Sequence record: PZ452591.1
Reading direction: 5' to 3' (one strand)
DNA: 64,000 bases
From: a phage
In this document: positions 3,698 through 33,630 of the stretch, piece after piece
Position numbering within the stretch: position 1 is the stretch's first letter
Layout: the number at the start of each line of letters is the position of its first letter
Position numbers and translations under genes: made by a program
Notes under the pieces: model-generated
The model's input: only the letters and a program-made list of their open reading frames with translations
Told to the model about the DNA's origin: nothing
The model's database searches: none

Positions 3698-4384
3698 TTA
3701 AAAATCGTGGGTAGAATCAGCTTCAAGAGCTACTACATAATTCGCATGTTCACCTTCAAATTTAGCAGCACCTTGTTTACCTTTTGCCCAGAGCAGAAGT
3801 TTATAATTTCCTGGTTGCATTTTCATATTTGCCATATTGATAATGAAATTAAATGTATTTTCACCATCATAATCACCAAGAGTCAAAGAATATTTAACAC
3901 GGGTCAGAGCAGAATCTTCTACTTTATTAAAACCGTTAATTACGATTTTACCTTCTTTTACCGTGATAGCAATTGTATCAATTTGCAGACCACGAGATAC
4001 ACGCAACAGTTGTTGAAGGTCTTCAGCTTTAATTTCAGTAACAACAGATGCTACCGGGAATGGAATTGGTTTATTAGGAGCAACTACTGTACTCGGATCG
4101 GCTGCTGGCCAAAAAATTGTTGAGCGGGCATCAGCAATTTTAATATTTCCATCTTCTGACTGGGAAATTTCTGCATCATCATTAACTAGAGACAGAATAC
4201 CGAGAAAACCGTTCAAATCGTAAATCGCTACATCAAAATCAATAACGTCAGAAATATTTGCTTCCGCATAAGTTGTACCATTAACTGCGCGAGTCATAAT
4301 AAATTGACCGGATTTAAGCATAATACCGGAGTTAATAGTAGCGAAATTTTTAAGCAAAGCAGTAGTATCTTTAGACAGTTTCAT
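3698..4384 (-). CDS. 45: sliding clamp gp45
   Basis: 228 aa, T4 size and synteny downstream of 44/62. Confidence 0.9.
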   Translation of the reverse strand: MKLSKDTTALLKNFATINSGIMLKSGQFIMTRAVNGTTYAEANISDVIDFDVAIYDLNGFLGILSLVNDDAEISQSEDGNIKIADARSTIFWPAADPSTVVAPNKPIPFPVASVVTEIKAEDLQQLLRVSRGLQIDTIAITVKEGKIVINGFNKVEDSALTRVKYSLTLGDYDGENTFNFIINMANMKMQPGNYKLLLWAKGKQGAAKFEGEHANYVVALEADSTHDF

Positions 4385-6765: not shown

Positions 6766-7025
6766 AAAAGATTCCTTTTAATGTATCTTTTAGACCATTC
6801 TATCATATCATCATAATCTAAAAAGTATTCATCAAATTCAGCCATGCAAACAACACCTTGTGCTGTTTTTGATGTAATATAAATTATTCCAACATATCTA
6901 GAATCTTCTTCGATATAATCAATATTTGCTATGAATTCATCATTAATGTCAAATGTCGAAAACTTCACAGTATGCATCCTTAATACAAGATACAGCCATA
7001 TCTCGTAATGATTTAGGTGTGTCAT
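6762..7025 (-). CDS. hypothetical protein (46.1 position)
   Basis: 87-aa ORF; stop overlaps gene 46 start (ATGA); start uncertain (alternative M17 at 6977). Confidence 0.5.
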   Translation of the reverse strand: MTHLNHYEIWLYLVLRMHTVKFSTFDINDEFIANIDYIEEDSRYVGIIYITSKTAQGVVCMAEFDEYFLDYDDMIEWSKRYIKRNLL

Positions 7026-7212
7026 TATCTAAAATGTTGAAGTTAAAAGATACAGCCCAGTCAGTGCAGACTGTAACCTTTTTAATACAATTATCTTCAA
7101 CTTCTAGCGGTTCAAACCAGTATTCAATAATTTCTTTATGACCAATATCATCTTTCACTTCACATTTAAAATGCTGACTCATCATAACATTTTTAAATTC
7201 ATCAAAAGTCAT
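6949..7212 (-). CDS. hypothetical protein (46.2 position)
   Basis: 87-aa ORF coupled to gene 47 stop. Confidence 0.5.
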   Translation of the reverse strand: MTFDEFKNVMMSQHFKCEVKDDIGHKEIIEYWFEPLEVEDNCIKKVTVCTDWAVSFNFNILDNDTPKSLRDMAVSCIKDAYCEVFDI

Positions 7213-8228
7213 TGTGTTGCCTCTACATATAGCTGATTTGCATATTGAATAAGTGCTTCACGATCAGAATCAGTGATGTCTGGAATTGCATTAATGTATT
7301 CTTCCATCAACGTCTGAAGCGATTGAACTTCAACTTCTTCACTGTCATCTGACTCGACAGAGTTATCAATCTTTGACACAACTCGTAATGAATGCACAAC
7401 TTTTTCTAGTTCAGATTCGAACTTCGTCAGATTTTTGTCTACTTCAGTTACTATAACACATACTGATAGATTTGTAAAATCTTTATAGTCAATTTTTCCT
7501 TTAAATGGATAATGAATTCTACGATGCCAGGTAGTATTGTTTGGAATAAATTCCATTCGTTCTGTTTCTGTATCAAACATCCAGAACCCACGAGGGTCAT
7601 TCTCGTCACCTGCAGTTAGTGTCCATGGTGTCCCAATATATCTGACGTTTGCAGCCTCAGAAATAGTATGGAAGTGACCAGACCACACTTCTTTATAAGT
7701 CTTAAGGAAATCAGGTTCAAGACCGTGAGATTTCATTCCTTTATAAAAATAAAATCCATTCAGTTCCCAGTGACCGACACAAAAAGAAGCAGATGAAGTT
7801 TTGATGTGCTCAAGAATTTCACCAGTATTTTCTTCGCACATCCAAGGAATCAAATCAATCAAACATCCGTCAAAATCTACTGTAGTAGGCTTATCATATA
7901 CTTTAACATTAGGATATTTAGCCAAAAGCTCAGTAGAGGCATTTGGATGCATTACATTTTTATAGTGGAGATCGTGATTTCCTACAATAGTATGTAATGT
8001 AATTCCAGCATCATCAAGCGTTTGAACTATTTCACGGGCGAACTCCATAGTTTTGTGTGTGATTGCTTTTCGCACATCAAAAATATCACCATATTGAATC
8101 CAGGTAGTAATTCCATTTTTCTTAGAATATTCTATTGCTTGTTTAATTCCATCAATTTGAATACCGCGAATCCACTCATCATCAGCTTTAACGCCTAAAT
8201 GCCAATCACCTAAATTTAAAATTTTCAT
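7209..8228 (-). CDS. 47: recombination nuclease subunit gp47 (Mre11/SbcD-like phosphoesterase)
   Basis: 339 aa, motifs GDWHLG, GNHD, GHWE typical of calcineurin-like nucleases. Confidence 0.9.
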   Translation of the reverse strand: MKILNLGDWHLGVKADDEWIRGIQIDGIKQAIEYSKKNGITTWIQYGDIFDVRKAITHKTMEFAREIVQTLDDAGITLHTIVGNHDLHYKNVMHPNASTELLAKYPNVKVYDKPTTVDFDGCLIDLIPWMCEENTGEILEHIKTSSASFCVGHWELNGFYFYKGMKSHGLEPDFLKTYKEVWSGHFHTISEAANVRYIGTPWTLTAGDENDPRGFWMFDTETERMEFIPNNTTWHRRIHYPFKGKIDYKDFTNLSVCVIVTEVDKNLTKFESELEKVVHSLRVVSKIDNSVESDDSEEVEVQSLQTLMEEYINAIPDITDSDREALIQYANQLYVEATQ

Positions 8229-26595: not shown

Positions 26596-27117
26596 TTATC
26601 CTTTCATTGAAGGCGTAACGGTTGTTAAATACTTAATCATAGCTTCAGCTTCTGATTTTGACAATGAAATTTCTCCATTGTTTTGACGAATAGAAATAAA
26701 ATCCGGATGACGGTCACCACCAGCTTTTAAAACATACATATAAGTATCAACTTCGCCTTCAATATTTGAAATGATTGAAGCAGTTCCACATGAATGCGGT
26801 TTTTGATAAATCAATACAGCTTTTCTTCCACCGTTTGACTGTTCATAGGCTTTTAATACATCAAACAAATCAGTTCTTTTATCAATAGCTAAAATGTTAT
26901 TTTCATCTTCAATGTTAAATCCTTCGGATACTTCATAAAGTGTCACCCATAAATCGCCAATATCAATAACAGCATTTACGTTTCCACGGCTTTCAAGAGC
27001 ATGACAAATTTTCTTGATTTCGTCATAACTCATTTTAATAATATCATCTCCTTGAATAAGAAAGATGTCATTTTTAAATTCAACACGAATTAAACCACTT
27101 CCACTTGAAATAAACAT
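26596..27117 (-). CDS. hypothetical protein, paralog of 27124-27681
   Basis: 173 aa; shared GFNI and C-terminal EA.A..KYL..V.P.M motifs. Confidence 0.55.
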   Translation of the reverse strand: MFISSGSGLIRVEFKNDIFLIQGDDIIKMSYDEIKKICHALESRGNVNAVIDIGDLWVTLYEVSEGFNIEDENNILAIDKRTDLFDVLKAYEQSNGGRKAVLIYQKPHSCGTASIISNIEGEVDTYMYVLKAGGDRHPDFISIRQNNGEISLSKSEAEAMIKYLTTVTPSMKG

Positions 27118-27123
27118 ATTTCC

Positions 27124-27681
27124 TCACTTTGAAATCATAGTTGGAATAACAGAATCAAGATAAGTCTTTAGCGCAATAGCTTCGTCTTTGGTAAATGTAA
27201 TGATATGTGATCGAAAATCGTCAATTTGGCGAATAGTTAAGACATCTCCCTCTTCATAACATTTTGATACATTTAAAAGAGTTTCATCATTCTGATTGCA
27301 AGCGTTAGTAATAATAGCATTGCAATTTTTGAGCCATTTTAAACTATGTTTTCTTTCATTAGAATAATAAAAATATTTAATCTTAGCTATAAAACTATCC
27401 CAATGGATAACTGATAAACACATTGACTCACTTTTAATATTAAATCCTGGGCATGAAGAATAAAAATGAATTTTGTGCTCATCATTGATGCTTACTATTT
27501 TATCAGTATAAGGATATTCAATTTGGGTTAAATGAATGATTTCACTAGGCGTAAAATATAGCATATCGTCTTCTTGCGTCAAACGATACATGTTATTTAC
27601 TTTTTCTATAGTCAATTCACCAAAAAGCGGACTAACTTCTAATACTAATCGTTTCATATTGATTCTCTTCGACTCACTCAC
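27124..27681 (-). CDS. hypothetical protein, paralog of 26596-27117 (start may be ATG at 27657)
   Basis: 185-aa track ORF begins at GTG; ATG at 27657 preceded by AAGAGAA. Confidence 0.55.
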   Translation of the reverse strand: MSESKRINMKRLVLEVSPLFGELTIEKVNNMYRLTQEDDMLYFTPSEIIHLTQIEYPYTDKIVSINDEHKIHFYSSCPGFNIKSESMCLSVIHWDSFIAKIKYFYYSNERKHSLKWLKNCNAIITNACNQNDETLLNVSKCYEEGDVLTIRQIDDFRSHIITFTKDEAIALKTYLDSVIPTMISK

Positions 27682-27816
27682 AATTACATACTCCTTTGAA
27701 TAATATCAATAATGTTGTTCACCAGATTATAAGTAAACATTGGGTAATTATATTGAATCATCACATACACAACAAACAAAACTTTCATTCTCTTCTCCTT
27801 GGCAGTTGACAAGATT

Positions 27817-27846
27817 ACTATACCATAACCTTGCCAACTTGTAAAC
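27817..27846 (-). promoter_or_regulatory. early promoter of the four-gene NTase operon
   Basis: GTTTACA-17 nt-TATAGT; -10 element lies within inverted repeat GTTGGCAAG/CTTGTCAAC. Confidence 0.5.
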
Positions 27847-28011
27847 CATTAAATGACGTTTTCAATAAAATTCTGAAGCTTTGTGTGAGCATCAACCATG
27901 ATTTTCATTTCTTCCTCTGCGAAAGCTGTACCTCTTTCCCGAGCAGAATACTCATAGTCAGAAACTGCATTAGCATATTCTTCAATTAGCTTCATTAAAA
28001 ACATCTGCTTT

Positions 28012-28206
28012 TCAGTTTTCATTATTCCACCTAATCATTTCAAGATATTGAACTAACTTAGCTTTAGATTTATCCAAATCCTTTTTAGCTGCTTCTATAC
28101 CGTCGTATGAATATCCTTCACAATGCTCAACTGCTAATTGATATGAATCTATTTCAATATCACGTGCTAATTTAATGATTTTTTCAAACTGTTCGCGTGT
28201 TAGCAT
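28012..28206 (-). CDS. small acidic helical protein (family of four)
   Basis: 64 aa, MLTREQFEKIIKL... pattern shared with 28209, 30223, 30408 ORFs. Confidence 0.45.
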   Translation of the reverse strand: MLTREQFEKIIKLARDIEIDSYQLAVEHCEGYSYDGIEAAKKDLDKSKAKLVQYLEMIRWNNEN

Positions 28207-28208
28207 AA

Positions 28209-28412
28209 TTAAACTCTCGTATTATGATCGATAATTTCATCAAGAAACATATCTAACGCTTCTAAAGCATTATCAACTTTAGCTTCAAGTTCATCAATGC
28301 CTTTATTTGCAATGCCTGACGAAAACCAAGCAAAGTCACTAAGTTCCTCGTCTGCTTTACGAATTAAAGCTACCAATTCTTTAATCTTATCCGCTTGTTC
28401 GATACTAATCAT
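28209..28412 (-). CDS. small acidic helical protein (family of four)
   Basis: Likely start M13 ([14 protein letters not shown]...), 67 aa; track ORF extends to 28448. Confidence 0.45.
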   Translation of the reverse strand: MISIEQADKIKELVALIRKADEELSDFAWFSSGIANKGIDELEAKVDNALEALDMFLDEIIDHNTRV

Positions 28413-28600
28413 TATTCCACCACATATGAAAGAGAGAATATTGCACACGCCATGTGAGTTGCAACTTCATCACACATATTATAACGTTTCTTAAGAAGTT
28501 CTACAAGTTCTTCACTAGTAACTTCATCCATGTCGACGAAAAAATCACCATTAATGATGACGTAGATATTTCCTTCTTGATTAAGTGCTTCAATTTTCAT
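28412..28600 (-). CDS. hypothetical protein
   Basis: ATG at 28600 after SD GAGGAG, 62 aa; track ORF extends through promoter to 28645. Confidence 0.45.
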
Positions 28601-28628
28601 GATGTTCTCCTCTTTATCCGATAGTTGT

Positions 28629-28658
28629 ATAGTACCACAGCTCAAACGGAAAGTAAAC
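28629..28658 (-). promoter_or_regulatory. early promoter
   Basis: GTTTACT-17 nt-TGGTACTAT on minus strand following a terminator hairpin. Confidence 0.5.
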
Positions 28659-28674
28659 CGGTAAAATGAAAAAA

Positions 28675-28690
28675 GTCTCCCGAAGGAGAC
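28675..28690 (-). terminator. intrinsic terminator
   Basis: Minus strand GUCUCC-UUCG-GGAGAC followed by UUUUUUCAUUUU, after rI.-1-position gene. Confidence 0.65.
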
Positions 28691-28695
28691 TAATG

Positions 28696-29082
28696 TTATT
28701 CGAGGGAAAGAAGATATTTACTCTGGTAAAACATTCCAGTAATATCATCTATCGTGCTTTGGATGGCTGGAGGCATTTCTTTATAAATGCTGTTAGATTG
28801 GTCTAGTATGCGATCAATCATTTTAATTGTGTCGGTAGGAAGTTTACTGGCATCTGGAATTGAAGGTGTGTATTTTCTACCAGAATACCCCAAATATTGC
28901 TCACCAAATTTATCAATCAAATCTGGCAACTCGGAGAAAATAAAATCGTATGCTTTGTGTCTAGCATAATTTTTAGTTTCAAAATGTGCAGAATGAAAAT
29001 AAGCTTGTGCAGCCATTAATAAACCTAAGTATTCATCTGCCTTTGAAGGTTTTCCACTTTGTGAAAAGTCGCTGAATTTCAT
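28696..29082 (-). CDS. hypothetical protein (rI.-1 position)
   Basis: 128-aa ORF immediately downstream of rI, followed by terminator. Confidence 0.5.
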
Positions 29083-29372
29083 TCAGTCTCCAATTTAATG
29101 TTCATAATTCTAGCGTATGATTGTGCCATCTCCGCGCCTCGTTCTATACATTCAAAATCAGAAGAGCACGGGTCATTTTTATAGGTCGTTCTCATAAAAC
29201 TATAGAATTGTTCAGACGATTCTACGCTTTTATTTTCAAAAAGCATATAAACGTGCCTAATACCAGATTCCATAAATTTATCAAAATGAGGATCGACATT
29301 CGCTTCAATCGATGGAGATAAAACAAATGACAATCCTAGCATGGCAAATAGTGCCGTTGCTTTTAAGGCCAT
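29079..29372 (-). CDS. rI: lysis inhibition regulator rI
   Basis: 97 aa, N-terminal signal-anchor MALKATALFAMLGLSFVLSPSIEA; T4 rI size and position. Confidence 0.8.
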   Translation of the reverse strand: MALKATALFAMLGLSFVLSPSIEANVDPHFDKFMESGIRHVYMLFENKSVESSEQFYSFMRTTYKNDPCSSDFECIERGAEMAQSYARIMNIKLETE

Positions 29373-29384
29373 AAAGGCCTCCTA

Positions 29385-29597
29385 TCATTTTTGTCCTGTA
29401 TTTACTTTATGCCGATGCACGGCCTTAACTTTATCAAGGTATTTTTCAAAATTTCGCAATCTAGTATAGTCTGCCGGAGATTGGTTGAGTGATACTTCTC
29501 GACGCAAAGCTGAAATGATATTTCCAACTTCCCTACGAATTTCATCTAATTGAAGAACAGTAAGATTGCGAAGTTGCTTTTCAGTTAATTGTAGCAT
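29385..29597 (-). CDS. hypothetical protein (rI.1 position)
   Basis: 70-aa ORF with late promoter TATAAATA upstream. Confidence 0.5.
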
Positions 29598-29622
29598 ATA
29601 TACCCCTTTAGTTAGATAAACC

Positions 29623-29630
29623 TATTTATA
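29623..29630 (-). promoter_or_regulatory. late promoter (TATAAATA) for rI.1/rI
   Basis: Exact TATAAATA on minus strand ~25 nt upstream of the 29597 start. Confidence 0.55.
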
Positions 29631-29639
29631 ACTTTTGCA

Positions 29640-30221
29640 CTAACCGAGCTTTTTAGTTAATTCATTCCAATGTTTTCTACACAAGGAAACATAAATTTCA
29701 TCACCAATACAGATTTGATTACCTTCTTTAACTGGTGTTCCATCTTCCATTAATCGAGCTGTCATAATCGCTTTTTTGCCGCAATGACAAACTGCCTTTA
29801 GTTCAATAAGTTTATCTGCAATCGCTAAAAGTTCTTTAGAACCTTCAAACAATTTTCCAGCGAAATCAGTCCTTAATCCATAAGCCATAACAGGAACATT
29901 ATATGTATCAACAATTCGGCTCAATTGATGCACCTGTTCAGTTTTTAAAAACTGGGCTTCATCTACAAATACGCAATGAATATCTTTTTGTGCTTCAGCC
30001 CATTTATAGAACTCGAAAATATCCATATCATCTGTAATAATATTTGCTTCCTGCCTAATTCCAATGCGAGAAACGACTTCACAGACAGAATCGCGAGTAT
30101 CAATAGCAGGCTTAAGAACTAATACACTCATTCCACGTTCTTTATAATTGTGCGCAGCAGTCAAAAGAGAAGCAGATTTTCCAGCATTCATTGCTGCATA
30201 AGTAAAAATTAAACTCGCCAT
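29640..30221 (-). CDS. tk: thymidine kinase
   Basis: 193 aa, P-loop AAMNAGKSASLL, Zn-ribbon CxxC...CxxH near C-terminus. Confidence 0.9.
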   Translation of the reverse strand: MASLIFTYAAMNAGKSASLLTAAHNYKERGMSVLVLKPAIDTRDSVCEVVSRIGIRQEANIITDDMDIFEFYKWAEAQKDIHCVFVDEAQFLKTEQVHQLSRIVDTYNVPVMAYGLRTDFAGKLFEGSKELLAIADKLIELKAVCHCGKKAIMTARLMEDGTPVKEGNQICIGDEIYVSLCRKHWNELTKKLG

Positions 30222-30222
30222 C

Positions 30223-30411
30223 TTAGTCCTTAGTTAAATTTTCTAAATATGTTTCTAAATCATTTTCAGCTTTATCGATAGATTTTACTAATTCGTAATA
30301 TGTTTCGGCATCTCCATAATCAGAAGATAATTCAAAAGACAAATCCTTTTCTAAACTAATAATTTCACCAACTAAAAATAATATTTCGTTCTTTTGTTCG
30401 CGAGTAATCAT
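30223..30411 (-). CDS. small acidic helical protein (family of four)
   Basis: 62 aa, MITREQKNEILFLVGEI... Confidence 0.45.
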   Translation of the reverse strand: MITREQKNEILFLVGEIISLEKDLSFELSSDYGDAETYYELVKSIDKAENDLETYLENLTKD

Positions 30412-30593
30412 AAGGAATTTATATAATCAATGAGTTCTTGTTCTTTATTATCGAATTCTTTAGAAAGTTCTTCGTACTCGTTTGCACTAAAAGGACCGCA
30501 TTCATTACAAACTTTTTCCAATTCACTATTTTTATCCATAACTTCGTGGATAAGAGAAAAGAGTTTATCTTTTTGTTCTTTGCTTAAACTCAT
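30408..30593 (-). CDS. small acidic helical protein (family of four)
   Basis: 61 aa, MSLSKEQKDKLFSLIHEV... Confidence 0.45.
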   Translation of the reverse strand: MSLSKEQKDKLFSLIHEVMDKNSELEKVCNECGPFSANEYEELSKEFDNKEQELIDYINSL

Positions 30594-30763
30594 ATATTAA
30601 TTTCCAAAAGTTTTAAAATAATTCGCTTTTGCTTAAATATTTCCACAGTTAAATGATCAGTATCTTTTTGACCAATTCCAATGGCAAAACCTTTATTAAC
30701 AGCGAGTTCAATTAAATTATCAAGTTCACGTAACACTTCATATTGTAACTCAGAACTATTCAT
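30590..30763 (-). CDS. small hypothetical protein (57 aa), not in ORF track
   Basis: Hand translation MNSSELQYEVLRELDNLIELAVNKGF...; ATGA overlaps at both ends with neighbouring genes. Confidence 0.4.
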   Translation of the reverse strand: MNSSELQYEVLRELDNLIELAVNKGFAIGIGQKDTDHLTVEIFKQKRIILKLLEINI

Positions 30764-30972
30764 TTTGGTTTACCTTCTTTAACGAAATCTGGATAAGGAT
30801 AAAATCCCGAATAAAATCCTTCACCTTTATGATTGATGCATCCTTTATTCGAACAATAGCACCAATAATCGAAATCACAAGCCATTTCATCGTTGCATAA
30901 AGCAAAAACAACCGGCCATTTACACTTTTCACAGTGGGCATTTTTAAGAATACTAGTTTGGCTCATAACCAT
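30760..30972 (-). CDS. Cys-rich zinc-finger-like protein
   Basis: 70 aa with 9 Cys (CEKCKW...CNDEMAC...WCYCSNKGC). Confidence 0.5.
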   Translation of the reverse strand: MVMSQTSILKNAHCEKCKWPVVFALCNDEMACDFDYWCYCSNKGCINHKGEGFYSGFYPYPDFVKEGKPK

Positions 30973-31190
30973 GTCACCTTTAAGCAGTATTCTTCTACAT
31001 GCTGTTTACGACCTTTCTTATCAATAAAGGTATATTCAACGAATGTTCCAATGTAGTCTTTATCTACATCATGTGGACTATTAATTGGACATTTAGTACG
31101 GCAAATGCGTTCCCATTGACGAATAATTACTGCCTTATTCTTTGGGTCATACGGATGTGGATAATGTATATTCATAATAATGGTTCCCAA
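30963..31190 (-). CDS. hypothetical protein
   Basis: 75-aa ORF. Confidence 0.45.
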   Translation of the reverse strand: MGTIIMNIHYPHPYDPKNKAVIIRQWERICRTKCPINSPHDVDKDYIGTFVEYTFIDKKGRKQHVEEYCLKVTWL

Positions 31191-31639
31191 TCAACAATCA
31201 CAATTTCTAATTTAGAGGAATATGTATCTAAAATCCCCTCAATAATATCCCAGTTCCCTTTACCTATGCCTGCACCAATCCTAGGCATATAGATTGTAGG
31301 TTTAATTAGTTTATTTTCACCAAACTCATTTAATTCTAACATACAATTCATTAAAGCGGAATACTCAAAATTTGGCCCTGGTTGAAATTGAGTATAAAGA
31401 TTAAAGCAGTAAGCTTTATGAGTCCTAAAGTATTTTTCATAGACTGAATAAGAACCAAGTTTAGTTACATCACCCCATTCAGTCTGTAATTTATCAGCTT
31501 CCAAAATTTTAGGGAAAGCTTTAGTTAATTGACCTGCGACTCCAGCTTTCATCGTGTGAAAACAATTACATCCATGCGCAATATTTTTACCTTCAGCGAA
31601 AAGGGCGACAATATCGCCCTTGATATATTTTACAATCAT
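31172..31639 (-). CDS. TARG1/OARD1-like macrodomain protein (putative ADP-ribose processing enzyme)
   Basis: 155 aa; KGDIVALF...IAHGCNC...KAGVAGQ and YMPRIGAGIGKGNW resemble the TARG1 macrodomain motifs as recalled. Confidence 0.6.
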   Translation of the reverse strand: MIVKYIKGDIVALFAEGKNIAHGCNCFHTMKAGVAGQLTKAFPKILEADKLQTEWGDVTKLGSYSVYEKYFRTHKAYCFNLYTQFQPGPNFEYSALMNCMLELNEFGENKLIKPTIYMPRIGAGIGKGNWDIIEGILDTYSSKLEIVIVDWEPLL

Positions 31640-33049: not shown

Positions 33050-33328
33050 TTATTCTTTAAATCTAATCAATTTATTCATAGACTTTGAAACTTCTGCACG
33101 AACCTCATGTAGATTTTTGAGCTGCTCAAGACGCTGCGCATAGTAAGCAATTTCATCTTCTTCGAGACAGTCCTGTGAATCTTCTTTAAGATAACGCGCA
33201 TAGTCCTGGAAAGCGTTACGAACTACTTCCTGGAAGTCATCAAGACTTTGAATTTTCTTAGGAGCAACAGATACACGACGAGGGGCAGTATAATACTCAT
33301 AACCAAACCCTGCGCTTAATTGAGCCAT
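33050..33328 (-). CDS. hypothetical protein (vs.3/vs.4 region)
   Basis: Likely start M15 ([13 protein letters not shown]...), 92 aa; coupled to upstream ORF. Confidence 0.45.
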
Positions 33329-33630
33329 TAGTATTTTTCCTCTGGTTGGAACACTGCACGACAAGCCCACATACTGGCTTCTTTGAGTTTCGTTTTAGCA
33401 ATAGTTAACTGATCGAGGCTTTCAGCATAATTCTTCGCGAATTCACAGTCTTCACAATTATCTAGTGCTTCCCAGAATTCATCATATAAAGCATCAAAGA
33501 TAAGCCCTAAACGAACTTCAGCATCTTTGATAGCATTCACTTTACTGATTTTATCGTCAGTATGTGGCTTATAACCTTTAATGTCTTCAATCATATTTGA
33601 CTTCCTCACCAGTACATAAATCGTATTCAA
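33328..33630 (-). CDS. hypothetical protein (vs.3/vs.4 region)
   Basis: 100-aa ORF (88 aa from M13). Confidence 0.45.

What the first reader, a model, noticed from the sequence alone, without database searches (positions are those of the whole stretch)
28012..30593. Family of four small acidic helical proteins in two tandem pairs
The ORFs at 28012-28206, 28209-28412, 30223-30411 and 30408-30593 are all 61-67 aa and share an N-terminal (T/S)(R/K)EQ..K(I/L)..L helix, a central aromatic-Gly turn and a C-terminal acidic helix ending ..YL(E/I)N(L/I). They sit on either side of rI and tk as adjacent pairs. Small acidic helical phage proteins often act as DNA mimics or protein inhibitors.
Basis: seen in the sequence. 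Interest (0 to 1): 0.4.

Follow-up and report, generated by a model that had tools for sequence, protein, structure and literature searches.

The report
T4 small helical-hairpin paralogues (DUF7438)
The four small proteins are true paralogues, with a fifth next to them, and belong to a catalogued T4-type phage family (Pfam DUF7438) of roughly 60-residue two-helix hairpins made early in infection, whose function is still unknown.

Summary
The window is a T4-like phage (Tequatrovirus, about 98.5% identical to RB18/T6/RB32). The four ORFs are the annotated genes mobD.3, mobD.4, tk.1 and tk.2.

All four match Pfam DUF7438 (56-69 bits against a 25-bit cut-off) and PHROG 653. A profile built without a given paralogue still finds it, at E 2e-5 to 2e-8, well ahead of every other ORF in the window.

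So the layout is a pair plus a triplet, not two pairs.

AlphaFold2 predicts an antiparallel two-helix hairpin for tk.2 (pLDDT 91) and mobD.2a (pLDDT 95).

The family is small: 36 clusters among 1.84 billion representatives, all stand-alone proteins of about 60 aa. Copy number ranges from 1 to 6 per genome in T-even-type phages. The copy just upstream of tk is shared across genera.

In published T4 data the genes are transcribed early, four of the proteins are detected, and knock-down has no fitness effect.

No function is known. My best guess, at low confidence, is a set of stoichiometric protein binders aimed at host or defence factors. The DNA-mimic idea has no specific support. This is a known family of unknown function, and of modest interest.

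The parts
30408..30593 (-). tk.2, 61 aa, DUF7438 helical hairpin
   Evidence: ORF. RB32 annotation tk.2. Pfam DUF7438 68.6 bits. AF2 model with helices 5-30 and 37-60, pLDDT 90.9. Its start overlaps the stop of the upstream ORF by 4 nt, and its stop overlaps the tk.1 start by 4 nt (ATGA).
30223..30411 (-). tk.1, 62 aa, DUF7438 helical hairpin
   Evidence: ORF. RB32 annotation tk.1. Pfam DUF7438 56.2 bits. Closest paralogue of tk.2, z = 8.5. Ends 1 nt before the tk start. Absent from some close relatives: ACG-C40, L008-L010, L013.
28209..28412 (-). mobD.4, 67 aa, DUF7438 helical hairpin with the longest and most variable loop
   Evidence: ORF; the ATG at 28412 is preceded by GGTGGA. RB32 annotation mobD.4. 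Pfam 57.0 bits. In 46 orthologues the loop-proximal part varies, including 7-residue indels, while the C-terminal EALDMFLDEII is invariant.
28012..28206 (-). mobD.3, 64 aa, DUF7438 helical hairpin
   Evidence: ORF. RB32 annotation mobD.3. Pfam 64.1 bits. z = 6.3 and 7.0 against tk.1 and tk.2.
   Evidence: ORF overlapping mobD.3 by 11 nt. Pfam DUF7438 60.9 bits. It falls in PHROG 2758 rather than 653. Leave-one-out E is only 0.12, but it still ranks first among non-training ORFs. AF2 model with helices 4-29 and 32-55, pLDDT 95.3.
28629..28658 (-). T4-early-type promoter-like site (GTTTAC-18-TACTAT, or TTTACT-17-TACTAT) upstream of mobD.5, mobD.4, mobD.3 and mobD.2a
   Evidence: Pattern search on the minus strand. 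Consensus match only, not tested. T4 orthologues are classed as early transcripts.
28674..28691 (-). Intrinsic-terminator-like hairpin (AGTCTCCTTCGGGAGACT followed by a T run) after rI.-1. It separates the tk.4..rI.-1 unit from the mobD.5..mobD.2a unit.
   Evidence: Terminator scan.
27817..27846 (-). Second early-type promoter-like site (GTTTAC-18-TATAGT with TG), just downstream of mobD.2a. It marks the end of the triplet's unit.

Best explanation
Shown. The window carries five diverged paralogues of one small protein family, Pfam DUF7438: tk.2, tk.1, mobD.4, mobD.3 and mobD.2a.
- Each is a stand-alone cytoplasmic protein of 57-67 residues. Each is predicted to fold as an antiparallel two-helix coiled-coil hairpin.
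- Helix 1 begins with a (T/S)-x-E-Q cap. Both helices show a/d heptad hydrophobics. A short Gly-containing loop joins them.
- The genes are packed with overlapping or abutting stop and start codons, in two early-transcribed units on either side of rI and tk.
- In T4 the orthologues are transcribed early, four of the proteins are detected, and knock-down has no fitness effect in laboratory E. coli.

Inferred. These proteins have no catalytic, membrane or nucleic-acid-binding features, so they most likely act by stoichiometric protein-protein binding.
- The conserved, more hydrophobic open end of the hairpin (the N-terminus of helix 1 and the C-terminus of helix 2) would be a common packing or oligomerisation surface. 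It could, for instance, pair two hairpins into a four-helix bundle.
- The variable loop-proximal half would carry paralogue-specific recognition.
- Copy number varies from 1 to 6. The genes sit in an accessory region that also holds proven counter-defence genes (tk.4 = adfM, vs.4 = acb2). This points to host-factor or defence-system modulation, with each paralogue possibly having its own target.

The confidence given (0.38) is for the inferred mechanism. The identity part (five DUF7438 hairpin paralogues, expressed early, dispensable in the laboratory) I hold at about 0.95.
For: Family and homology.

Fold. PDB structure matches are all generic helical hairpins that pack into helical bundles, such as Rop, CsoR/FrmR, histidine-kinase DHp and 2js5, with TM 0.5-0.9 but E >= 0.5.

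Heptad pattern and open-end conservation: columns 10, 18, 21, 22, 25 and 62, 65, 66, 69 are 97-100% hydrophobic, and E13 is 97% conserved. The loop region is variable.

Gene packing and promoter or terminator-like sites.

Expression in T4: mobD.3 and mobD.4 have early RNA and early protein. tk.1 and tk.2 have early RNA and middle protein (PMC9697503 supplement).

Dispensability: the genes are 'Not Fit' in CRISPRi-ART (PMC11879866 supplement). The nrdC.11-mobD.3 fragment is deletable (PMC9825161).

Copy-number flux: 1-6 copies across Tequatrovirus, Mosigvirus, Gaprivervirus, Kanagawavirus and Moonvirus.

Neighbourhood: tk.4, a macro-domain gene at 31172-31639, is AdfM, an anti-DarTG2 factor (bioRxiv 10.1101/2025.11.20.689424). 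vs.4 is acb2 (PMC12657218), at window 33328-33594.
Against: There is no direct functional evidence for any member.
- No partner, phenotype or toxicity is reported.
- T4 transposon screens against RexAB, RnlAB, CBASS, DarTG1 and DarTG2 each singled out known or other anti-defence genes, not these. Redundancy among paralogues could mask an effect.
- Conservation at the open end may reflect folding only.
- Proximity to anti-defence genes is weak evidence in a region packed with unrelated small early genes.
- Two distant single-copy members sit in unrelated high-GC phage contigs, so the family is not tied to one host or one defence repertoire.
Confidence: 0.38

Rival explanations
1. DNA mimics. 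The acidic hairpins, perhaps as dimers, imitate the phosphate backbone and block DNA-binding host proteins such as restriction enzymes or nucleoid proteins. Ocr and Arn work this way.
For: tk.1, tk.2 and mobD.4 are strongly acidic, with net charge -8 to -10 and 24-26% D+E. They are small early phage proteins.
Against: Acidity is not conserved. mobD.3 is -3 and mobD.2a is -4, and family members range up to +1. The conserved positions are hydrophobic core residues and the N-cap, not an acidic array. No structural match to a known DNA mimic appeared in PDB or BFVD.
Confidence: 0.08
2. Phage-internal accessory factors. The hairpins would act as adaptors or regulators for neighbouring phage functions, for example nucleotide metabolism (Tk, the dNTP-synthesis complex) or lysis inhibition (RI), rather than acting on host proteins.
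For: One copy lies immediately upstream of tk in every T-even-type genus examined: RB69, PEi20, Moon (separated by a homing-endonuclease insert), VR25-like and Tequatrovirus. The two distant members lie within 3.5 kb of a dCMP-deaminase gene. Start and stop codons overlap or abut within the tk operon.
Against: The mobD-side copies are not next to nucleotide-metabolism genes. Synteny in T-even phages is generally conserved, so position is weak evidence. Knock-down of tk.1 or tk.2 gives no fitness effect, but neither does knock-down of tk.
Confidence: 0.12
3. Rop-like four-helix-bundle nucleic-acid binders. Dimers of hairpins would bind RNA or DNA and regulate gene expression.
For: The fold resembles Rop (TM 0.84-0.90, rmsd 1.2 Å) and other dimeric hairpins.
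Against: Foldseek E-values are 0.5 or worse, so this is generic hairpin geometry. The proteins are acidic (pI 4.2-5.0) and have no conserved basic patch. There is no sequence similarity to Rop or to any solved structure.
Confidence: 0.04
4. Largely dispensable evolutionary passengers. These would be duplicated small ORFs kept by drift and recombination in a hyperplastic region, with little or no present function.
For: No fitness effect on knock-down or deletion. Frequent loss, for example tk.1 missing in several relatives, mobD.2a truncated to 38 aa in T4, and 2 copies in L013.
Against: The family is conserved across at least five genera, and in two unrelated high-GC phages, with intact reading frames. 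Helix cores are near-invariant in dozens of orthologues. The proteins are detected in infected cells.
Confidence: 0.1
5. Chance resemblance of low-complexity acidic helices, with no common ancestry.
For: Pairwise identities are only 22-31%. mobD.4 pairs reach only z of about 3.5-3.8, and mobD.2a is weak in leave-one-out (E 0.12).
Against: Leave-one-out profiles recover each of the four at E 2e-5 to 2e-8, with no other window ORF below 0.4. Other small acidic ORFs nearby do not match. rI.1 is rejected by profile-profile comparison. Independent curated models, Pfam and PHROGs, group them.
Confidence: 0.01

Closest known systems
Pfam DUF7438 (PF24219) / PHROG 653: T4 Tk.1, Tk.2, MobD.3, MobD.4
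   Same: The window proteins are near-identical orthologues of these T4-type genes. They score 56-69 bits on the Pfam model and have the same length, position and order.
   Different: Nothing substantive. mobD.2a is placed by PHROGs in a separate family (2758), although Pfam includes it. This window's mobD.4 is the 67-aa long-loop form and its mobD.2a is full length, whereas T4 itself has a 60-aa mobD.4 and a 38-aa mobD.2a.
Rop (ColE1) and other dimeric helical-hairpin four-helix bundles (CsoR/FrmR, histidine-kinase DHp)
   Same: An antiparallel hairpin of about 60 residues with heptad a/d cores. TM-scores reach 0.84-0.90.
   Different: No sequence relationship, and Foldseek E >= 0.5. Dimerisation is untested here. 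The proteins are acidic rather than RNA- or DNA-binding.
Small early phage inhibitor proteins and DNA mimics (Ocr, Arn, and T4 AsiA as a helical host-protein binder); comparison from general knowledge
   Same: Small, early-expressed, non-essential, often acidic, and acting by binding rather than catalysis.
   Different: No homology or specific structural match was found. No target is known. Acidity is not conserved across the family.

Membership tests
Pfam DUF7438 (PF24219) | Whole-protein score above the curated gathering threshold (25 bits), covering the whole 57-position model | tested here: met
   mobD.3 64.1, mobD.4 57.0, tk.1 56.2, tk.2 68.6 and mobD.2a 60.9 bits. Model coverage is 1-56 or 1-57 of 57 positions.
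Pfam DUF7438 (PF24219) | Homology that does not depend on the member itself being in the model | tested here: met
   Leave-one-paralogue-out HMMs give E 2e-5 (tk.2), 2.4e-8 (tk.1), 2e-6 (mobD.3) and 4.2e-7 (mobD.4). mobD.2a reaches only 0.12 but is still the top non-training ORF.
Pfam DUF7438 (PF24219) | Stand-alone protein of about 60 aa with a two-helix hairpin fold | tested here: met
   Lengths are 57-67 aa. AF2 predicts hairpins for tk.2 (pLDDT 90.9) and mobD.2a (pLDDT 95.3). All 36 representative hits are 38-76 aa. The other three paralogues were not modelled separately.
PHROG 653 | Significant match to the PHROG profile | tested here: met
mobD.2a instead matches phrog_2758 (9e-35), and phrog_653 only at 0.058.
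DNA-mimic proteins (Ocr/Arn type) | Dense, conserved surface array of acidic residues mimicking DNA phosphates | tested here: inconclusive
   Net charge is -3 to -10 in the window and +1 to -11 across the family. Conserved columns are hydrophobic or N-cap residues, not acidic. Surface geometry was not computed.
DNA-mimic proteins (Ocr/Arn type) | Binds and inhibits a DNA-binding protein | not testable with these tools
   Needs biochemistry.
Rop-like four-helix bundle | Homodimer of hairpins that binds RNA through a basic or polar face | tested here: not met
   The resemblance is generic fold only (E about 2). There is no sequence match. The proteins are acidic, pI 4.2-5.0. A dimer prediction could not be run.
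Phage counter-defence proteins | Required for growth on a host carrying a given defence system | not tested
   Literature only. These genes are not among the hits of T4 transposon screens against RexAB, RnlAB, CBASS, DarTG1 and DarTG2. The neighbours tk.4/adfM and vs.4/acb2 are proven counter-defence genes.
'Helicase loader' (label of PHROG 4859 and some RefSeq records) | Similarity to a characterised helicase-loading protein | tested here: not met
   phrog_4859 matches mobD.4 at only 7e-6 and mobD.2a at 1.4e-3. The proteins carrying this label in T6 and ACG-C40 are plain DUF7438 (57.8 bits) with no other Pfam domain. No helicase-loader structure appeared in the PDB searches.

The most novel reading that the evidence does not exclude
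The DUF7438 hairpins could be a diversifying toolkit of counter-defence or host-takeover inhibitors. A conserved open end would mediate homo- or hetero-oligomerisation among paralogues. The hypervariable loop-proximal half would give each paralogue, or each combination, a different host target. That would explain the 1-6 copy flux and the position beside adfM and acb2.
Probability: 0.2. Interest if true: 0.55.

Novelty: already known. Interest (0 to 1): 0.22.

Why it matters
T4 is the best-studied large lytic phage, yet roughly half of its genes, mostly small early ones like these, still have no function. A five-fold paralogue expansion of an early-expressed hairpin, sitting beside two proven counter-defence genes, is a reasonable and cheap target for multi-gene deletion and interaction screens. 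As a sequence observation it adds nothing new, because the family is already in Pfam and PHROGs. The practical gain here is a corrected member list of five, a fold, a map of conserved versus variable parts, and the clearing away of misleading database labels.

Tried and rejected
1. Further members in the window. An HMM scan of all 684 six-frame segments found none beyond the five.

2. rI.1 (29385-29597). It looked similar by eye (LTEKQ......YLDKV) and gave z = 4.5 against tk.1. Profile-profile comparison gave probability 0.9% and Pfam found nothing, so it is not a member. mobD.5 and the ORF at 30590-30763 are also not members.

3. A natural tk.2/tk.1 chimera (P0023, UniRef entry for phage UFV-AREG1). 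This looked like evidence of unequal recombination. No current phage record encodes it: the best identity is 65.6%, and the present UFV-AREG1 record has two separate genes. I treat it as an artefact of an older record.

4. Structure searches against PDB and BFVD. These returned only generic hairpins and uncharacterised T4-like phage proteins, with no functional lead. A sequence profile against the PDB gave only a weak, implausible Nrf2 match at E 0.003.

5. PADLOC and NCBIfam returned nothing meaningful.

The single-protein run gave only 7 loci.

8. Literature searches by gene names, DUF and PHROG numbers, and T4 early toxic proteins found no functional study.

9. A DNA-level repeat search found no nucleotide similarity between paralogues, so the duplications are old.
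Full report
**Identity of the region.** The stretch 27800-30800 is 98.5% identical over its full length to Tequatrovirus genomes such as RB18, Sf24, T6 and RB32. All genes here run on the minus strand. By the RB32 annotation the order, in the direction of transcription, is: tk.4, tk.3, two small ORFs, tk.2, tk.1, tk, rI.1, rI, rI.-1, mobD.5, mobD.4, mobD.3, mobD.2a, mobD.2, mobD.1.

**Is the similarity real?** Yes.
- Pairwise identities are low, 22-31%.
- Local alignment scores exceed 1000 composition-preserving shuffles with z = 8.5 (tk.1/tk.2), 7.0 and 6.3 (mobD.3 against tk.2 and tk.1), and 3.5-3.8 for pairs involving mobD.4.
- Neighbouring small acidic ORFs (mobD.5 and the ORF at 30590-30763) score z of about -1.0 to 2.7 against the four.
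- I built profiles that left out one paralogue group at a time and searched all 684 six-frame segments of the window. Each omitted member was recovered at E = 2e-5 to 2.4e-8, and the best unrelated segment never scored below E = 0.4.
- Two independently curated libraries group them. Pfam DUF7438 (PF24219) gives 56-69 bits against a 25-bit threshold. PHROG 653 gives E 1e-22 to 2e-25.
It is much better than that.

**A fifth member.** mobD.2a (27849-28022, 57 aa) overlaps the end of mobD.3 by 11 nt.
- It matches DUF7438 at 60.9 bits.
- It is predicted with pLDDT 95.3 to be the same two-helix hairpin.
- It is the most divergent member: leave-one-out E is 0.12, and it sits in PHROG 2758 rather than 653.
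- No sixth member exists in the window.
- rI.1 looks similar by eye but is rejected (hhalign probability 0.9%).
- The layout is therefore a pair (tk.2-tk.1) and a triplet (mobD.4-mobD.3-mobD.2a).

**Anatomy.**
- AlphaFold2 on a 12-sequence family alignment gives tk.2 as helix 5-30, a loop, then helix 37-60, with pLDDT 90.9.
- A 34-sequence alignment shows a clean heptad pattern. Columns equivalent to a/d positions, plus one e position per helix, are 97-100% hydrophobic. Ala is favoured at two d positions.
- The (T/S)-x-E-Q motif sits exactly at the N-cap of helix 1. E is 97% conserved and Q 79%. A Gly and a Ser mark the loop and the cap of helix 2.
- Conservation is strongest at the open end of the hairpin, meaning the start of helix 1 and the end of helix 2.
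- Among 46 mobD.4 orthologues from near-identical genomes, the loop-proximal part varies and carries indels of up to 7 residues. The C-terminal EALDMFLDEII is invariant.
- Net charge is -3 to -10 in the window and +1 to -11 across the family, so acidity is common but not defining.
- There is no nucleotide-level repeat between paralogues, so the duplications are old.

**Gene organisation.**
- Start and stop codons overlap or abut. tk.2 and tk.1 overlap by 4 nt (ATGA). mobD.5 and mobD.4 overlap by 1 nt. mobD.4 and mobD.3 are 2 nt apart. mobD.3 and mobD.2a overlap by 11 nt.
- A terminator-like hairpin follows rI.-1 (28691-28674).
- After it comes a T4-early-type promoter-like site, GTTTAC-18-TACTAT, at 28658-28629, ahead of mobD.5.
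- A second such site lies just after mobD.2a, at 27846-27817.
- These are consensus matches only and are untested.

**Distribution.**
- A word-indexed search found 102 clusters, essentially all on T4-like contigs of about 165-170 kb.
- An exhaustive HMMER scan of 1.84 billion representatives found only 36 hits at E <= 1e-3. All are stand-alone proteins of 38-76 aa.
- Named members come from Tequatrovirus, Mosigvirus, Gaprivervirus-type (VR25), Kanagawavirus and Moonvirus, among others.
- Scanning the syntenic region in fetched loci gives these copy numbers:

| Genome or locus | Copies |
|---|---|
| This window, RB32, L011 | 5 |
| T6 | 6 |
| ACG-C40, L008 (no tk.1, but an extra copy beyond mobD.2) | 5 |
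| L007, L009, L010 | 4 |
| RB69, L012 | 3 |
| L013 | 2 |
| PEi20, Moon (one clear copy each) | 1 |

- The copy directly upstream of tk, downstream of the macro-domain gene tk.4, is the one present in all genera.
- Two distant single-copy members lie on unrelated high-GC phage contigs. L014 has 58% GC and carries DpdA, PolA and an integrase. L015 has 53% GC. The family therefore extends beyond T-even phages, but it expanded in them.

**What is known experimentally (T4 orthologues).**
- mobD.3 and mobD.4 have early RNA and early protein. tk.1 and tk.2 have early RNA, with protein classed as middle. mobD.2a has early RNA and no detected protein, and T4's own copy is a 38-aa truncation (PMC9697503 supplement).
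- Genome-wide dCas13d knock-down scored all of them 'Not Fit', meaning no fitness effect. The same table lists the four under phrog_653 (PMC11879866 supplement).
- A fragment spanning nrdC.11 to mobD.3 can be deleted (PMC9825161).
- T4 transposon screens against RexAB, RnlAB, CBASS, DarTG1 and DarTG2 singled out other genes. Among them is the neighbour tk.4, now named adfM, an anti-DarTG2 macrodomain (bioRxiv 10.1101/2025.11.20.689424).
- vs.4, about 2.7 kb upstream at window 33328-33594, is acb2 (PMC12657218).
- No paper in the library addresses the function of DUF7438 proteins.

**Most likely mechanism (inference).**
- The proteins are about 60-residue soluble hairpins. They have no catalytic motif, no membrane segment, no basic patch and no relative with another domain.
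- The only plausible mode of action is binding.
- Structure matches are all generic hairpins that pack into helical bundles, at non-significant E-values. This is compatible with dimerisation into a four-helix bundle but does not demonstrate it. I could not run a multimer prediction.
- The split between a conserved open end and a variable loop end, early expression, dispensability in the laboratory, copy-number flux and a location among counter-defence genes all fit a set of host-factor or defence modulators with paralogue-specific targets.
- I put this at roughly 0.35-0.4.
- Rivals and my estimates: phage-internal adaptors tied to tk or nucleotide metabolism (0.12), near-neutral passengers (0.10), DNA mimics (0.08), Rop-like nucleic-acid binders (0.04), and chance similarity (0.01, refuted).

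**Comparison with known families and novelty.**
- These are members of Pfam DUF7438 and PHROG 653, and all defining features tested were met.
- Labels attached to family members in public records are annotation noise. These include 'helicase loader', 'kilA anti-repressor', 'molybdopterin-guanine dinucleotide biosynthesis protein MobD' and 'rI antiholin'. The proteins that carry such labels and that I checked are plain DUF7438.

**Verdict.** This is a catalogued family of unknown function, of modest interest as a candidate for multi-gene deletion and interaction screens.

Noticed in passing
window 26596-27117 and 27124-27657 (minus strand): A second tandem paralogue pair lies just downstream: two mobD.1-type proteins of 173 and 177 aa. 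Both carry the Pfam domains T4_y05I_N and T4_y05I_C, described as a putative transcription factor. RB32 annotates the first as 'similar to mobD.1'.
   Followed up: partly
window 31172-31639 (minus strand): tk.4 is a macro-domain protein (Pfam Macro, 25 bits). Its T4 orthologue was recently named AdfM, an anti-DarTG2 counter-defence factor (bioRxiv 10.1101/2025.11.20.689424).
   Followed up: partly
window 33328-33594 (minus strand): vs.4, the T4 acb2 anti-CBASS sponge gene (PMC12657218), lies about 2.7 kb upstream of tk.2. The ORF is seen, and its position follows the RB32 annotation.
   Followed up: partly
L002 (T6) 1200-1385; L003 (ACG-C40) 4004-4189; L004 (RB69) 7001-7180: A sixth DUF7438 paralogue group (MTSEQAFKLRELIETYSK...) is present next to mobD.2 and mobD.1 in T6, ACG-C40, RB18 and RB69 but absent from this window. 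It is variously mislabelled 'kilA anti-repressor', 'helicase loader' and 'tk.1'.
   Followed up: yes
L003, L008, L009, L010 compared with window 30223-30593: tk.2 occurs as two allelic types that are only about 57% identical, in otherwise closely related genomes. In the Tequatrovirus loci examined, the 'ELIHELLDEH...' type goes with absence of tk.1 and the window's 'SLIHEVMDKN...' type with its presence. This suggests cassette replacement.
   Followed up: partly
window 28413-28423 and 28023-28033 (minus strand, just upstream of the mobD.4 and mobD.2a starts): mobD.4 and mobD.2a share an identical 13-nt ribosome-binding and start context, GGTGGAATAATGA. This could be a relic of the duplication or a convergent RBS.
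   Followed up: no
window 28209-28448 (minus strand): The mechanical ORF for mobD.4 extends to an upstream GTG, adding 12 residues ([12 protein letters not shown]...). At least one public record (P0081, 72 aa) annotates that longer form. The ATG at 28412, which has an RBS, is the usual and more plausible start.
   Followed up: partly
public records of DUF7438 proteins (P0027, P0062, P0074, P0075, P0090): Several NCBI entries name these phage proteins 'molybdopterin-guanine dinucleotide biosynthesis protein MobD'. This is apparently a name collision with the T4 locus name mobD, a homing endonuclease.
   Followed up: no
L014 (JGI contig Ga0642625_01650), gene at 8001-8213: A distant single-copy DUF7438 gene sits in a 62.7-kb, 58% GC phage contig. 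The contig encodes QueD/PTPS, DpdA (7-deazaguanine DNA modification), PolA, a DNA methyltransferase, dCMP deaminase and an integrase, so it is a quite different phage type from T4.
   Followed up: partly
window 30760-30972 and 30963-31190 (minus strand): The small ORFs between tk.2 and tk.4 belong to other catalogued phage families: Phage_zn_bind (PF23895) and DUF7202 (PF23832). Canonical T4 lacks two of the ORFs found here between tk.2 and tk.3. T4 coordinates put tk.3 directly after tk.2, whereas RB32 has ORF110c and ORF111c in between.
   Followed up: no
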